Assembly: GCF_009914755.1 (NCBI RefSeq)
Contig: NC_060947.1
Source of the DNA: the human T2T-CHM13v2.0 reference genome, Homo sapiens
DNA: 64,000 nucleotides
Direction: 5' to 3' (one strand)
Part shown: one piece after another, positions 1,331 to 27,934 of the stretch
How positions within the stretch are numbered: the stretch's first letter is position 1
Layout: the number at the start of each line of letters is the position of its first letter
The notes under the pieces: generated by a model
What the model saw: the letters and a program-made list of their open reading frames with translations, nothing else
Databases searched by the model: none
What the model was told of the DNA's origin: nothing
Translations under genes and position numbers: made by a program

Positions 1331-1690
1331 ATAAAATAAAAATATAGGCTAATGTCGCTTCTGAGAACACACATACAAATCCTAAACAAATTAGTAATAC
1401 ATAGATTATTCAAAAAGGATAATGTGTCATGACCAAATGTTTCCCCCTAGGAATGCAACGTTGGTTTAAACATAGCAACTTACCAATGTAATTCACAATG
1501 TTAACAGATTAATAAAGGAAAAAGTCCTGTAATCATCTACGTGGATGCATTACAAGTGCTTCATGAAAGTCAATATATATTCAAGATAAATAGTCTTAAC
1601 AAATGGAAAATAGAATGGAACTTCCTATTCTAATAAAATAGATCTATTTTAAAAAGCACAGCAAACTTAAGATATTTATCAAAAAATTCC
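1330..1690 (+). mobile_element. Old L1M ORF2 fragment (also ~720-960 and ~3945-4200)
   Basis: Degenerate RT-region sequence (catgaccaa..ctaggaatgcaa; gacgatatgattgtgtatg), split by later insertions. Confidence 0.7.
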
Positions 1691-3935
1691 CATTCTTATA
1701 CACCAATAACAGACAAACAGAGAGCCAAATCATGAGTGAACTCCCATTCACAATTGCTTTGAAGAGAATAAAATACCTAGGAATCCAACTTACAAGGGAC
1801 ATGAAGGACCTCTTCAAGGAGAACTACAAACCACTGCTCAATGAAATAAAAGAGGATACAAACAAATGGAAGAACACTCCACGCTCATGGGTAGGAACAA
1901 TCAATATTGTGAAAATGGCCATACTGCCCAAGGTAATTTATAGATTCAATGCCATCCCCATCAAGCTACCAATGACTTTCTTCACAGAATTGGAAAAAAC
2001 TACTTTAAAGTTCATATGGAACCAAAAAAGAGCCCACATCGCCAAGTCAATCCTAAGCCAAAAGAACAAAGCTAGAGACATCAAGCTACCTGACTTCAAA
2101 CTATACTACAAGGATACAGTAACCAAAACAGCATGGTACTGGTACCAAAACAGAGCTATAGATCAAGGGAACAGAACAGAGCCCTCAGAAATAATGCCGC
2201 ATATCTATAACCATCTGATCTTTGACAAACCTGACAAAAACAAGCAATGGGGAAAGGATTCCCTATTTAATAAATGGTGCTTGGAAAACTGGCTAGCCAT
2301 ATGCAGAAAGCTGAAACTGGAACCCTTCCTTCCACCTTATACAAAAATTAATTCAAGCTGGATTAAAGACTTAAATGTTAGACCTGAAAACATAAAAACT
2401 CTGGAAGAAAACCTAGGCAATACCATTCAGGACATAGGCATGGGCAAGGACTTCATGTCTAAAACACTAAAAGCAATGGCAACAAAAGCCAAAATTGACA
2501 AATGGGATCTAATTAAACTCAAGAGCTTCTGCACAGCAAAAGAAACTACCATCAGAGTGAACAGGCAGCCTACAGAATGGGAGAAAATTTTTGCAATCTA
2601 CTCATCTGACAAAGGGCTAATATCCAGAATCTACAATGAACTCCATCAAATTTACAAGAAAAAAACAACCCCATCAAAAAGTGGGCAAAGGATATGAACA
2701 GACACTTCTCAAAAGAAGACACTTAGGCAGCCAAAAGACACATGAAAAAATGCTCATCATCACTGGCCATCAGAGAAATGCAAATCAAAACCACAATGAG
2801 ATACCATCTCACACCAGTTAGAATGGCGATCATTAAAAAGTCAGGAAACAACAGGTGCTGGAGAGGATGTGGAGAAATAGGAACACTTTTACACTGTTGG
2901 TGGGACTGGAAACTAGTTCAACCATTGTGGAAGTGAGTGTGGTGATTCCTCAGGGATCTAGAACTAGAAATACCATTTGACTCAGCCATCCCATTACTGG
3001 GTATATACCCAAGGATTATAAATCATGCTGCTATAAAGACACATGCACATGTATGTTTATTGTGGCACTATTCACAATAGCAAAGACTTGGAACCAACCC
3101 AAATTTTGAGAAGTGTCTGTTCATATCCTTTGCCCACCAACCAATCCAACAATAATAGCCTGGATTAAGAAAATGTGGCACATATACACCATGGAATACT
3201 ATGCAGCCATAAAAAATGATGAGCTCACGTCCTTTGTAGGGACATGGATGAAATTAGAAATCATCATTCTCAGTAAGCTATCGCAAGGACAAAATACCAA
3301 ACACTGCATGTTCTCACTCATAGATGGGAATTGAACGATGAGAACACATGGACACAGGAAGGGGAACATCGCACTCTGGGGACTGTTGTGGGGTGGGGGG
3401 AGTGGGGAGGGTTAGCATTAGGAGATATACCTAATGCTATATGACAAGTTAATGGGTGCAGCACACCAGCATGGCACATGTATACATATGTAACTAACCT
3501 GCACATTGTGCACATGTACCCTAAAACTTAAAGTATAATAATAATAAAAAAAAGAAAATGTGGCACATATACACTATGGAATACTAAGCAGCCATAAAAA
3601 ATGATGAGTTCATGTCCTTTATAGGGACATGGATGAAGCTGGAAACCATCATTCTCAGCAAACTATCACAAGGACAAAAAACCAAACACCACATGTTGTC
3701 ACTCATAGGTGGGAATTGAACAGTGAGAACACATGGAAACAGGAAGGGGAACATCACACACCAGGGCCTGTTGTGGGGTGGGGGGAGTGGGGAGGGATAG
3801 CATTAGAAGATATACCTAATGTTAAATGACGAGTTAATGGGTGCAGCACACCAACATGGCACATGTGTACATATGTAACTAACCTGCACATTGTGCACAT
3901 GTACCTTAAAACTTAAAGTATAACAAAAAATATAA
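1690..3935 (+). mobile_element. 5'-truncated L1PA (copy 1) with two tandem 3' ends (tails at ~3535-3553 and ~3920-3944)
   Basis: ORF2 C-terminal peptides in ORFs 1732..2697 and 2742..2936. The 3'UTR G-tract and A tail occur twice. Confidence 0.95.
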
Positions 3936-4204
3936 AACAAAAAATTTCCAGTGCCTAGTACGCATAAGAGAAGGATGGCCACAATTACTGGTTCTAATCA
4001 GCATTGTATTGGGTGAGTCCGTCTGATGTTGTGAAATAGGAAAAAGGAAAAAGTACAGTGTTTGAAATGTCAGAAACAAGCTGTTGTTATTCAAAGACGA
4101 TATGATTGTGTATGTTGAAAATCCGAAAGGATCTAGAGATAAATTTGGAATGAGGATATTTAGCAAGTTTACTGCATAGAAAAACAATATACAAACATGA
4201 TACC

Positions 4205-24752: not shown

Positions 24753-25050
24753 AGCTGGGCCTGGTGGCTCATGCCTGTAATCCCAGCACTTTGGGAGGCC
24801 AAGGCAGGTGGATTGCCTGAGCTCAGGAGTTCATGACCAGCCTGGGCAACATGGTGAAACCCCGTCTCTATTAAAATACAAAAAAATTTGCCTGGCATGG
24901 CAGCGTGCACCTGTAGTCACAGCTACTTGGGAGGCTGAGGCAGGAGAATCGCTTGAACCCAGGAGGCGGAGGTTGCAGTGAGCAGAGATCGTGCCACTGC
25001 ACTCCAGCCTGGGTGACAGAGGGAAACTCTATCTCCAAAAAACAAAAAAT
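24753..25050 (+). mobile_element. AluS
   Basis: Full dimer. Confidence 0.9.
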
Positions 25051-25441
25051 CTTGCACTTGCCCACAATTGTTCTGTGTTCAGCACGGTGAAGTTCTGTGT
25101 GTAGTTCCAAATTTCCTTCTATTTTCCTTCTGACCCAAGAACTTCCTTTAACATGTTTTGTAGGACAAATCTGTTGACAGTGACTTTTCTCCCCATTTTT
25201 GTTTGTTTACCTGTTTGTGTAAACATGTTTATGTCACATTCATTAAAAAAAATTGTACTGATTAGAAAGTTCTGGGTTGCACAGATTCTGATGAGAAGTC
25301 TGATGGATGACTTTAAATTTGTTCCTCTGTATGTAGTGTGTCTTCCTTTCTTTTTCTGCCAGAGCATTGATGTTGGGGTTTGAATCAATCTTTTCAGTAG
25401 CTGAACTGGACTTCAGTTGTGTTTTTGCTGTAGTTATTTTC

Positions 25442-27934
25442 TCTCTTTTTTTTTGCAGCAGCTATAAATGTGAATTTATTTTTTTTTTAATTTTTTAATT
25501 TTTATTTATTATACTTTAAGTTCTAGGGTACATGTGCACAACATGCAGGTTTGTTACATAGGTATACATGCACCATGTTGGTGTGCTGCATCCATTAACT
25601 CGTCATTTACATTAGGTGTATCTCCTAATGCTATCCCTCCCTCCTCCCTCCCACCCCATGACAGGCCCCGGTGTGTGATGATCCCCTTCCTGTGTCCAAG
25701 TGTTCTCATTGTTCAATTCCTACCTATGAGTGAGAACATGCGGTGTTTGGTTTTTTGTCCTTGTGATAGTTTGCGGAGAATGATGGTTTCCAGCTTCATC
25801 CATGTCCCTACAAAGGACATGAACTCATCCTTTTTTATGGCTGCATAGTATTCCATGGTGTATATGTGCCACATTTTCTTAATCCAATCTATCATTGATG
25901 GACATTTTGGTTGGTTCCAAGTCTTTGCTATTGTGAATAGTGCCGCAATAAACATACATGTGCATGTGTCTTTATAGCAGCATGATTTATAATCCTTTGG
26001 GTATATACCCAGTAATGGGATGGCTGGGTCAAATGGTATTTCTAGTTGTAGATCCTTGAGGAATCGCCACACTGTCTTCCACAATGGTTGAACTAGTTTC
26101 CAGTCCCACCAACAGTGTAAAAGTGTTCCTATTTCTCCACATCCTCTCCAGCACCTGTTGTTTCCTGACTTTTTAATGATTGCCATTCTAACTGGTGTGA
26201 GATGGTATCTCATTGTGGTTTTGATTTGCATTTCTCTGATGGCTGCCTAAATGTCTTCTTTTGAGAAGACTTTTTGAGAAGTCTTTTGAGAAGACTTTGC
26301 CCACTTTTTGATGGGGTTGTTTGTTTTTTTCTTGTAAATTTGTTTGAGTTCTTTGTAGATTCTGGATATTAGCCCTTTGTCAGATGAGTAGATTGCAAAA
26401 ATTTTCTCCCATTCTGTAGGCTGCCTATTCACGCTGATGGTAGTTTCTTTTGCTGTGCAGAAGCTCTTGAGTTTAATTAGATCCCATTTGTCAATTTTGG
26501 CTTTTGTTGCCATTGCTTTTGGTGTTTTAGACATGAAGTCCTTGCCCATGCCTATGTCCTGAAAGGTATTGCCTAGGTTTTCTTCTAGGGTTTTAATGGT
26601 TTTAGGTCTAACATTTAAGTCTTTAATCCATCTTGAATTAATTTTTGTATAAGGTGTAAGGAAGGGATCCAGTTTCAGCTTTCTGCATATGGCTAGCCAG
26701 TTTTCCCAGCACCATTTATTCAATAGGGAATCCTTTCCCCATTTCTTGTTTTTGTCAGGTTTGTCAAAGATCAGATGGTTGTAGATGTGTGGTATTATTT
26801 CTGAGGGCTCTGTTCTGTTCCATTGGTCTATATCTCTGTTTTGGTACCAGTACCATGCTGTTTTGGTTACTATAGCCTTGTAGTATATATAGTTTGAAGT
26901 CAGGTAGCGTGATGCCTCCAGATTTGTTCTTTTGGCTTAGGGTTGTCTTGGCAATGCAGGCCCTTTTTTGGTTCCATATGAACTTTAAAGTAGTTTTTTC
27001 CAATTCTGTGAAGAAAGTCATTGGTAGCTTGATGGGGATGGCATTGATTCTATAAATTACCTTGGGCAGTATGGCCATTTTCACGATATTGACTCTTCCT
27101 ATCCATGAGCATGGAATGTTCTTCCATTTGTTTGTGTCCTCTTTTATTTCGTTGAGCAGTGGTTTGTAGTTCTCCTTGAAGAGGTCCTTCACATCCCTTG
27201 TAAGTTGGATTCCTAGATATTTTATTCTCTTTGAAGCAATTGTGGATGGGAGTTCACTCATGATTTGGCTCTCTGTCTGTCTGCTATTGGTGTATAAGAA
27301 TGCTTGTGATTTTTGCACATTGATTTTTGTATCCTGAGACTTTGCTGATGTTGCTTATCAGCTTAAGGAGATTTTGGGCTGAGACGATGGGGTTTTCTAA
27401 ATATACAATCATGTCATCTGCAAATAGGGACAATTTGACTTCCTCTTTTCCTAATTGAATACCCTTTATTTCTTTCTCCTGCCTGGTTGCCCTGGCCAGA
27501 ACTTCCGACACTATGTTGAATAGGAGTGGTGAGAGAGGGCATCCCTGTCTTGTGCCAGTTTTCAAAGGGAATGCTTCCAGGTTTTGCCCATTCAGTATGA
27601 TATTGGCTGTGGGTTTGTCATAAATAGCTCTTATTATTTTGAGATACGTCCCGTCAATACCTAATTTATTGAGAGTTTTTAGCATGAAGGCTGTTGAATT
27701 TTGTCAAAGGCCTTTTCTGCATCTATTGAGATAATCATGTGGTTTTTGTGTTTGGTTCTGTTTATATGCTGGATTACATTTATTGACTTTCGTATGTTAA
27801 ACCAGCCTTGCATCCCAGGGATGAAGCCCACTTGATCGTGGTGGATAAGCTTTTTGATGTGCTGCTGGATTCGGTTTGCCAGTATTTTACTGAGGATTTT
27901 TGCATCAATGTTCATCAGGGATATTGGTCTAAAA
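25442..27934 (-). mobile_element. 5'-truncated L1PA5-like element (copy 3), tail-to-tail with copy 2
   Basis: ORF2 peptides on the - strand. 15-bp TSD gctgtag(t/a)tattttc at 25427-25441 and 27935-27949. Confidence 0.95.

What the first reader, a model, noticed from the sequence alone, without database searches (positions are those of the whole stretch)
1690..27934. Three L1 copies share variants in a non-tree-like patchwork: probable ectopic gene-conversion network
Seen in all three copies: GACTGGAAACTAG (CWWDWK rather than the usual CWWDCK; 2904, 24117, 26093), AAACTCAAGA and GGCAGCCTAC. Copies 2+3 share a +TATA frameshift (23301-23322 / 26876-26899), CTATTGAATAAA, CCATCCACAATT and TAGAATCAATG where copy 1 is canonical, plus an extra-A frameshift (22864-22880 / 27318-27335) outside copy 1's span. 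Copies 1+2 only: GAACTCCATCAAATT (2638, 23848), TCAAGCTGGATT, TGACTCAGCC. Copies 1+3 only: TTAGGCAGCC (2723, 26241). The copies have different flanks and different 3'UTR subfamily characters. Knowledge: independently retrotransposed L1s should not normally share inactivating frameshifts. Inference: all three pairwise patterns occur, which fits repeated conversion between neighbours rather than simple descent.
Basis: partly seen in the sequence, partly recalled or inferred. Interest (0 to 1): 0.8.

Follow-up and report, generated by a model that had tools for sequence, protein, structure and literature searches.

The report
Two neighbouring L1 fossils exchanged sequence
Three old, broken L1 retrotransposon copies near XAGE3 inserted separately; two that lie tail to tail later copied about 650 bases from one to the other, which is ordinary, while one variant shared by all three proves oddly confined to a few genome regions.

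Summary
The three copies are separate L1 insertions: they have different 5' ends, different flanks and putative target-site duplications, and copy 2 has an empty site in the other arm of the FAM156A/B inverted repeat. Copy 2 is longer than reported (20669-24725).

Only the copy 2 / copy 3 sharing is clearly above background. A block at 22506-23150 (= 27691-27048) holds 19 shared rare variants against 4-5 discordant sites (P about 6e-10). The set occurs nowhere else in the genome, which fits one ectopic gene conversion of about 650-730 bp between inverted neighbours.

Copy 1 shares 6 (with copy 2) and 4 (with copy 3) rare variants. That is above most dispersed pairs but below what copies 2 and 3 share with an L1 2.1 Mb away, so a three-way conversion network is not supported.

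Of the three variants shared by all copies, two are common and dispersed. The third, a Cys-to-Trp change in ORF2, has 146 genome hits that cluster strongly, more than half on chrX. This clustering is unexplained.

The parts
1691..3937 (+). L1 copy 1: 5'-truncated 3' part of ORF2 plus 3'UTR, with an internal tandem duplication (3167-3559 / 3552-3945, about 90%) and a roughly 40-bp extra L1-like piece at 3105-3144
   Evidence: Putative target-site duplication CAAAAAATTCC at 1680-1690 and CAAAAAATTTCC at 3938-3949, read
20669..24725 (+). L1 copy 2: about 4.06 kb, from the start of ORF2 to the poly(A) run (24715-24725); ORF2 is broken into at least 6 reading-frame pieces
   Evidence: Pfam Exo_endo_phos in 20648-20959; RVT_1 in 21283-22911. 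Empty site in the other inverted-repeat arm
25441..27934 (-). L1 copy 3: 5'-truncated at 27934; L1 body 25491-27934; A-rich tail with a 24-nt extra piece at 25441-25490
   Evidence: Target-site duplication GCTGTAG(T/A)TATTTTC at 25426-25440 and 27935-27949. It has 0 differences from its paralogue at chrX:52255305-52257740
22506..23150 (+). Conversion tract in copy 2: 19 variants shared with copy 3 that are rare elsewhere. The outer limits are 22503 and 23236
27048..27691 (-). The same conversion tract in copy 3
22870..22870 (+). Extra A (A5 instead of A4) in ORF2, shared with copy 3 (27328); it lies inside the tract
   Evidence: 0 of 27 dispersed copies; 96 genome hits, 93 of them dispersed
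23307..23310 (+). Extra TATA in ORF2, shared with copy 3 (26888-26891). It lies outside the core tract and is flanked by discordant sites at 23276 and 23325
   Evidence: (5 genome hits: 2 on chromosome 1, 3 local)
24122..24122 (+). T-to-G change that turns the last Cys of the ORF2 CX3CX7HX4C motif into Trp; also at 2909 (copy 1) and 26100 (copy 3)
   Evidence: translation reads ...[19 protein letters not shown]...
23853..23855 (+). CAT codon (AAA in most copies) shared by copies 1 (2644-2646) and 2. The exact 28-mer has only 6 genome hits, all on chrX between 51.23 and 52.17 Mb
25425..29434 (.). Outer end of the perfectly identical arm of the FAM156A/B inverted repeat. There are 0 mismatches to the distal arm down to 25425; the arm continues inward beyond 29434 (not measured)
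16258..25105 (.). Older, diverged outer part of the same inverted repeat (83-94% identical to the distal arm), interrupted in this arm only by copy 2 and by the Alu at about 20221-20505

Best explanation
The three elements are ordinary, dead, 5'-truncated L1PA-type insertions that arrived by separate retrotransposition events. Copies 2 and 3 lie tail to tail, with their 3' ends about 0.8 kb apart. They later underwent at least one non-allelic (ectopic) gene conversion that made a block of about 650-730 bp (22506-23150 = 27691-27048) nearly identical. That carried one copy's private mutations, including the extra-A frameshift, into the other. The isolated shared TATA insertion and 23477G may be patches of the same or another event (inferred). 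From 5 differences in 645 bp, the event is a few million years old (inferred, wide error). The direction is unresolved, with a slight lean to copy 3 as donor. Copy 1 is not shown to take part. What it shares with copies 2 and 3 consists of polymorphisms found widely among dispersed L1 copies, plus two variants that are regionally enriched among Xp11.2 L1 copies. Copy 3 sits at the outer edge of the perfectly homogenised FAM156A/B inverted repeat. The insertion of copy 2 marks where arm-to-arm homogenisation stops.
For: Separate origin:
- The 5' ends differ: 1691 corresponds to 22898 in copy 2, copy 2 starts at the beginning of ORF2 (20669), and 27934 corresponds to 22263.
- No flank homology was found.
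- Copy 3 has a 15-bp target-site duplication matching 14 of 15, and copy 1 has an 11-12-bp one.
- The distal inverted-repeat arm joins the equivalents of 20668 and 24726 without copy 2.

Conversion:
- Copy 2 differs from copy 3 by 0.5% in 22663-23062, but by 5-6% from 27 dispersed copies. Outside the block the two differ by 2-10%.
- In 22600-23320, copy 3 and its paralogue score 99%; the best of the other 37 scored copies reaches 97% (40 of 3840 candidates scored).
- 19 of the 24 shared rare events fall in one run of 23 events (hypergeometric 8e-12; times 72 possible runs, 6e-10).
- 8 variants are carried by copies 2 and 3 alone among 41 sequences. The background is about 0.11 per pair.
- Each tested variant recurs only as scattered hits elsewhere: 10 of 13, 17 of 20, 2 of 5 and 93 of 96 hits are non-local. 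On chrX only the local trio carries the two point variants and the TATA insertion that were tested; the extra A also occurs in 6 other chrX copies.

Known precedent: conversion among neighbouring Alu elements within about 10 kb, with hotspots on the sex chromosomes (passages read in PMC6598467 and PMC8230782).
Against: - Five of the shared variants inside the block (22506G, 22575T, 22725A, 22798T, 23096A) are also in L021 at chrX:50.01 Mb. They are therefore lineage markers rather than private mutations, which lowers the count of truly pair-private sites to about 14.
- The reference panel is biased. It holds the best 27 of 40 scored copies out of 17,763 candidates chosen for likeness to copy 2, and 8 of the 27 are X-linked.
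- No ape orthologue or second human haplotype could be examined, so the pre-conversion state is not observed.
- The TATA insertion lies outside the contiguous tract.
- Copy 1 and copy 2 do share more rare events (6) than 350 of 351 dispersed pairs, so a small exchange involving copy 1 is not excluded.
Confidence: 0.8

Rival explanations
1. A conversion network links all three copies: repeated exchanges 1-2, 1-3 and 2-3 across 21-25 kb.
For: Copies 1 and 2 share 6 rare events and copies 1 and 3 share 4. Copies 1 and 2 differ by only 1.0% in 23663-23862 and 1.5% in 24063-24262. All three carry the rare G at 24122.
Against: There is no run of shared sites: they are scattered singly between discordant sites. 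Only one variant is carried by each of these pairs alone in my sample of 41 sequences (23567C; 23939G), which is the level seen in unrelated dispersed pairs. 23567C has 13 dispersed hits elsewhere. In 23560-24270, 39 dispersed copies reach 97% to copy 2, and copy 1 was not among the 40 scored. L021, 2.1 Mb away, shares more with copies 2 and 3 (8 and 9 events) than copy 1 does.
Confidence: 0.12
2. Copies 2 and 3 share the block by descent, not by conversion. Either one is a DNA-level inverted duplicate of part of the other, or both were retro-copied from the same already frameshifted source.
For: They sit 0.8 kb apart in inverted orientation, in a region full of palindromes and inverted repeats. 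They share two frame-breaking insertions.
Against: Homology stops exactly at the 5' end of copy 3, and no flank is shared. Copy 3 has its own target-site duplication, and copy 2 has an empty site in the paralogous arm. Shared variants are confined to about 650 bp of a 2.4-kb overlap. Elsewhere each copy has its own 1.4-5% of rare variants, which descent from one source does not predict.
Confidence: 0.06
3. Assembly or polishing chimerism between near-identical L1 copies created the shared block.
For: None from my calls.
Against: The copies differ by 2-10% outside the block, and there are 5 differences inside it, which gives ample unique anchors for long reads. The distal paralogue of copy 3 carries the same block in a different flank.
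Confidence: 0.02

Closest known systems
Non-allelic gene conversion between neighbouring retrotransposon copies (best described for Alu; Aleshin and Zhi 2010, as summarised in PMC6598467 and PMC8230782; I read passages only)
   Same: Independent insertions of one family, a few kb apart. Part of one element is overwritten by the other, producing a hybrid element. The rate is reported to fall with distance (about 10 kb range) and to be raised on the sex chromosomes.
   Different: Here the partners are L1 ORF2 fragments, not Alu elements. The tract (about 650-730 bp) is longer than a whole Alu. The pair is inverted and abuts a large inverted repeat.
Arm-to-arm gene conversion in X-chromosome palindromes and inverted repeats (PMC11890787, passages read; it names FAM156A among regions more than 99% similar)
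   Same: Intrachromosomal exchange between inverted homologous sequences on the X. Copy 3 and its paralogue are kept identical in this way (0 differences).
   Different: Copies 2 and 3 are not duplicated arms. They are unrelated insertions that are homologous only because both are L1.
Erosion of recombination-hotspot motifs inside repeat families by biased transmission (PRDM9 motif loss in THE1 and L2 elements; recalled from memory, not read here)
   Same: It produces the same site-specific substitution in many copies of a repeat, whatever their subfamily. This is the kind of pattern seen for the T-to-G change at 24122.
   Different: No PRDM9 motif was tested here. Megabase clustering, restriction to some chromosomes and a strong chrX excess are not described for that process, as far as I recall.

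Membership tests
LINE-1 insertion by target-primed reverse transcription | Sequence encodes L1 ORF2 (endonuclease and reverse-transcriptase domains) and matches dispersed genomic L1 copies | tested here: met
   Pfam Exo_endo_phos (E 2e-8) and RVT_1 (E 9e-18 and 8e-16) in pieces of copy 2. 94-95% identity to 27 dispersed copies over the region shared by the three copies.
LINE-1 insertion by target-primed reverse transcription | Variable 5' truncation, a 3' A-rich tail and a flanking target-site duplication for each copy | tested here: met
   There are three different 5' ends. Copy 3 has a 15-bp duplication (14 of 15 matching) and copy 1 an 11-12-bp one. For copy 2 the duplication cannot be delimited because the target is A-rich.
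LINE-1 insertion by target-primed reverse transcription | An unoccupied (empty) site exists in a paralogue or orthologue | tested here: met
   Met for copy 2 only. The distal inverted-repeat arm is continuous across the insertion point at about 90% flank identity. Not testable for copies 1 and 3.
Ectopic (non-allelic) gene conversion | A contiguous block of shared, otherwise rare variants bounded by discordant sites, in copies of independent origin | tested here: met
   19 shared rare events and 4-5 discordant sites in 22506-23150, bounded at 22503 and 23236; P about 6e-10.
Ectopic (non-allelic) gene conversion | The block's variant set is absent from other family members | tested here: met
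   Four variants were searched genome-wide. Non-local hits are scattered, and none lies near another on chrX. The best dispersed match to the block is 97%, against 99% for copy 3.
Ectopic (non-allelic) gene conversion | The pre-conversion state is seen in an outgroup or in another haplotype, and the donor is identified | not testable with these tools
   No ape or second human assembly is held. The direction has only weak hints: copy 3 shares 23405A and 23411C with L021 just outside the tract.
Segmental or palindromic duplication (as the origin of the copy 2 / copy 3 likeness) | Flanking non-repeat sequence is duplicated together with the element | tested here: not met
   Homology ends at the L1 edges. 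The feature is met for copy 3 against its distal paralogue and for the L1 in the chrX:52.01 Mb palindrome.

The most novel reading that the evidence does not exclude
The Cys-to-Trp variant (T-to-G at 24122), and on a smaller scale the CAT codon at 23853-23855, were acquired after insertion by many independent L1PA copies of at least two subfamilies. This happened inside a limited set of megabase-scale regions, above all Xp11.2. The pattern would be the footprint of a site-specific, allele-specific, distance-limited copying process among dispersed repeats. One possibility is repair of breaks directed at that L1 motif from nearby copies that had lost the motif, a process that would be favoured on the X because it has no homologue in males. 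This would be concerted evolution of dispersed L1 fossils over megabases, which to my knowledge has not been described.
Probability: 0.15. Interest if true: 0.8.

Novelty: new member of a known kind. Interest (0 to 1): 0.45.

Why it matters
The local result is a clean, datable example of L1-to-L1 ectopic conversion beside the boundary of a large X-linked inverted repeat. It warns that divergence-based ages and subfamily calls of neighbouring L1 fossils can be distorted, and that shared frameshifts need not mean shared descent. It also shows that a 4-kb L1 insertion lies within about 0.4-0.7 kb of the point where arm-to-arm homogenisation of the FAM156A/B repeat ends. The regional clustering of one ORF2 variant, if it is not a lineage effect, would point to a long-range homogenising or mutational process acting on dispersed repeats. 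It can be tested directly with the complete ape genomes and human pangenomes.

Tried and rejected
1. I searched for a source of the 24-nt piece in the tail of copy 3. The only hits were copy 3, its paralogue and a one-mismatch hit on chromosome 6. The 2.7 kb fetched there, which lies almost wholly on one side of the hit with about 108 nt on the side where an L1 would be expected, holds no L1. I treat it as a dead end.

2. I tested whether the extra copies carrying the CAT codon are recent segmental duplicates of copy 1. They are not. They are 94.5-96% identical to each other and have at least four different 5' structures.

3. I considered the G variant as a simple retrotransposing sublineage. 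This was weakened: the 23970C state I first took for a private lineage marker has 2,874 dispersed hits, so G sits on at least two abundant subfamily backgrounds. G also removes a Cys of the ORF2 zinc-knuckle motif.

4. I considered linkage of offspring to a rare active source, or a burst in one ancestor, as the cause of clustering. I rejected this by arithmetic alone (inference, no call): the density of G copies in clusters, about 5 per Mb, roughly equals the whole L1PA density and would need implausible insertion rates.

5. I considered a tool artefact for the clustering. This was rejected: the T allele and the C/A alleles of the same 29-mer are found on all large chromosomes, and rare-variant patterns recovered known chromosome 1 and 2 loci.

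6. A general excess of rare-variant sharing among Xp11.2 copies is not significant once the copy 2 / copy 3 pair is removed: 8 doubletons in 44 pairs against 0.11 per pair in the background.

7. A label-shuffling test of tract clustering was not run. I used a hypergeometric calculation instead.

9. A Pfam scan of the unbroken copy 2 translation was not possible because of stop codons. I used open pieces instead.

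
Full report
**What is there.**
A repeat scan and a self-BLAST of the window show three stretches of the same L1 region:
- copy 1 at 1691-3945 (+);
- copy 3 at 27934-25491 (-).

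Pairwise identities are 95.6% (1 v 2, 1421 columns), 92.3% (1 v 3) and 94.8% (2 v 3, 2463 columns with 29 gaps). One ungapped 1396-nt stretch of 2 v 3 reaches 98%.

The window's own assembly could be searched. Of 17,763 candidates for copy 2, 40 were scored. The dispersed L1 copies reach 94-95%, the same as copy 3. Overall, then, copies 2 and 3 are no closer to each other than to L1 copies on other chromosomes.

**Anatomy, corrected.**
- Alignment to those dispersed copies shows that copy 2 continues upstream to about 20669, where ORF2 begins (sequence). Open pieces of it match Pfam Exo_endo_phos (20648-20959) and RVT_1 (21283-22911).
- Copy 2 ends in an 11-A run at 24715-24725.
- Copy 3 has a 15-bp target-site duplication, matching 14 of 15, at 25426-25440 and 27935-27949.
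- Copy 1 has CAAAAAATTCC at 1680-1690 and CAAAAAATTTCC at 3938-3949.
- The three 5' ends differ, and no flank homology was found.

**Relation to the inverted repeat.**
- Copy 3 has a paralogue at chrX:52255305-52257740 in the other arm of the FAM156A/B inverted repeat, with 0 differences.
- The two arms are identical from window 29434 down to 25425. There are 4 differences in 25424-25156, and about 10% divergence below 25105.
- Further out, the arms still align at 83-94% down to 16258. The distal arm lacks copy 2 and the Alu at about 20221-20505: its sequence runs straight from the equivalent of 20668 to that of 24726.
- Copy 2 is therefore an independent insertion into an older repeat arm. 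It lies about 0.4-0.7 kb outside the point where arm-to-arm identity collapses.

All ten motifs are present at the stated places, with one start off by one base. I aligned the three copies, the distal paralogue and 27 dispersed copies. L001 and L005 were left out because they are the window itself. L004, the paralogue, was kept out of the reference panel.

Using the 27 dispersed copies as the reference, the columns in which local copies share a state differing from the commonest panel state fall as follows:

| Copies sharing | Columns |
|---|---|
| 2+3 | 33 (14 of them outside copy 1's span) |
| 1+2+3 | 8 |
| 1+2 | 5 |
| 1+3 | 2 |

The extra A and the extra TATA are insertions relative to 27 of 27 and 26 of 27 panel copies.

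**Copies 2 and 3.**
- Divergence between them is 0.5% in 22663-23062. Each is 5-6% from the panel there. Outside that stretch they differ by 2-10%.
- I counted events with each indel as one and with "rare" meaning at most 15% of the panel. Up to 24330 the pair has 94 informative events, 24 of them shared and rare.
- Nineteen of the 24 lie in one run of 23 events between 22506 and 23150. The nearest discordant sites outside are 22503 and 23236. The hypergeometric probability for one given run is 8e-12; multiplied by 72 possible runs it is 6e-10.
- Among 351 dispersed pairs the mean is 0.96 shared rare events and the maximum is 7.
- Eight variants are carried by copies 2 and 3 alone among 41 sequences, against about 0.11 per pair in the background.

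Genome-wide pattern searches show that each variant recurs elsewhere only as scattered hits:

| Variant | Genome hits | Non-local | Local |
|---|---|---|---|
| 23150A | 13 | 10 | 3 |
| 22953C | 20 | 17 | 3 |
| TATA insertion | 5 | 2 | 3 |
| extra A | 96 | 93 | 3 |

A search with 22600-23320 gives copy 3 and its paralogue at 99%. The best of the other 37 scored copies reaches 97% (40 of 3840 candidates scored).

This is the signature of an ectopic conversion tract of about 650-730 bp. Five differences inside the tract (22507, 22531, 22593, 22691, 22897) put the event at roughly a few million years ago. This is an inference with a wide Poisson error.

Five of the shared variants (22506G, 22575T, 22725A, 22798T, 23096A) also occur in L021 at chrX:50.01 Mb, so they are lineage markers rather than private mutations. 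Copy 3 also shares 23405A and 23411C with L021 just outside the tract. That weakly favours copy 3 as the donor.

The TATA insertion and 23477G are isolated shared sites outside the tract. They may be separate patches.

**Copy 1.**
- Copy 1 shares 6 rare events with copy 2 and 4 with copy 3. Counts that high are reached by 1 and by 9 of the 351 dispersed pairs respectively. The shared sites are scattered singly among discordant sites.
- Only one site is carried by each pair alone in my sample of 41 sequences: 23567C and 23939G. 23567C has 13 dispersed hits elsewhere.
- In 23560-24270, 39 dispersed copies are 97% identical to copy 2. Copy 1 was not among the 40 scored of 4528 candidates.
- L021, 2.1 Mb away, shares more with copies 2 and 3 (8 and 9 events) than copy 1 does.

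I therefore see no need for conversion involving copy 1, though a small exchange cannot be excluded.

**Variants shared by all three copies.**
- 23729C is in 6 of 27 panel copies.
- 23777G has 318 hits spread over the chromosomes listed.
- The third, T-to-G at 24122, changes the last Cys of the ORF2 CX3CX7HX4C motif to Trp.

**The unexplained clustering of the 24122 variant.**
- Its 29-mer has 146 genome hits, against 12,236 for the T allele and 114 for the C and A alleles together.
- The T, C and A alleles are spread over all large chromosomes.
- The first 100 listed G hits lie only on chromosomes 2, 3, 6, 7, 8, 9, 10, 16, 17, 18, 20 and X. By my own count from the listing, 78 of them have another hit within 1 Mb, against 28 of the first 100 listed C/A hits.
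- At least 29 listed hits, plus the 46 unlisted ones that sort after chrX:53.4 Mb, are on chrX or later in the listing order.
- A 42-mer version (111 hits) shows about 37 hits in chrX 48.9-55.7 Mb.
- Twelve G copies were fetched. They carry different subfamily backgrounds within the same clusters. The 23970C state that marks one background has 2,874 dispersed hits.
- The window and 23 kb of the distal arm hold no T-allele copy: all 4 copies are G.

**The CAT codon shared by copies 1 and 2.**
- This codon (23853-23855) is AAA in most copies.
- Its 28-mer has only 6 hits, all on chrX between 51.23 and 52.17 Mb.
- The four extra copies have different 5' structures and are 94.5-96% identical to each other and to copies 1 and 2. 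They share little else.
- They sit on both subfamily backgrounds.
- The pair 23777G plus 24122G occurs only in copies 1 and 2, in the two arms of a 99.93% palindrome at chrX:52.01 Mb, and once on chromosome 16. Copy 3 fails that pattern because of private changes.

So likeness among these L1 fossils falls off with genomic distance at several scales. I could not explain this. A simple sublineage, a source-linked burst, a tool artefact and general regional reticulation were each considered and found wanting (see Tried and rejected).

**What is known.**
- Conversion among neighbouring Alu elements within about 10 kb, with hotspots on the sex chromosomes, is described. I read passages of PMC6598467 and PMC8230782, which cite Aleshin and Zhi 2010; I did not read that paper itself.
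- Arm-to-arm conversion in X palindromes is described, and FAM156A occurs once in a paper on segmental duplications more than 99% similar (PMC11890787; passages read, but the FAM156A passage itself was not shown).
- My four full-text searches turned up no description of megabase clustering of an L1 ORF2 variant. These were narrow searches, so that is no proof that none exists.

**Verdict.**
That pair is a new example of a known process. The clustered Cys-to-Trp variant is the part worth following up.

Noticed in passing
window 2909, 24122, 26100; genome-wide hits: The T-to-G (Cys-to-Trp) ORF2 variant has 146 exact hits. None of the first 100 listed is on chromosomes 1, 4, 5, 11-15, 19, 21 or 22. 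Clusters lie at chr2:52.5-53.3 Mb, chr2:76.0-78.3 Mb, chr6:121.4-122.0 Mb, chr16:58-69 Mb, chr20:19.0-19.6 Mb and above all chrX:48.9-55.7 Mb. The variant sits on at least two L1PA subfamily backgrounds. The C and A alleles at the same site are dispersed.
   Followed up: partly
window 2644-2646 and 23853-23855; chrX:51231936, 51406110, 51568812, 51593955: The CAT codon (AAA in most copies) has only 6 exact 28-mer hits in the genome, all within about 1 Mb of chrX. They are in L1 copies with different 5' ends and different subfamily backgrounds.
   Followed up: partly
window 25105-25425 against chrX:52253805 onward (L004, L055): The FAM156A/B inverted-repeat arms are identical down to 25425, which is exactly the outer target-site duplication of copy 3. 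Identity then decays to about 90% within 320 bp. The older outer arms (83-94%) continue to 16258. Copy 2 and one Alu are insertions in this arm only.
   Followed up: yes
window 19022-19092 and 27935-27994: The proximal outer arm holds an extra piece of about 70 bp that the distal arm lacks. It is a 92% copy of the sequence that flanks the 5' end of copy 3, starting at its target-site duplication. It may be an old templated insertion; its origin is unexplained.
   Followed up: partly
L073 (chrX:52011001-52017200): A palindrome with arms at least 2958 bp long and 99.93% identical, separated by a spacer of about 240 bp. Each arm ends inward in the same 5'-truncated L1, which carries 23777G and 24122G.
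   Followed up: partly
window 3105-3144 and 3167-3945: Copy 1 carries an extra piece of about 40 bp that looks like another part of L1. It also has a 385-bp tandem duplication of its 3'UTR, with the two units about 90% alike.
   Followed up: no
window 25441-25490: Between two A runs at the 3' end of copy 3 lies a 24-nt piece found nowhere else except in the paralogue, plus a one-mismatch match on chromosome 6 with no L1 in the 2.7 kb fetched there (almost all on one side of the hit).
   Followed up: yes
window 16787-17481: Two adjacent minisatellite-like arrays: units of 14-17 bp rich in CTTTTACTTTACAGAT, followed by an array with a period of 8-12 bp.
   Followed up: no
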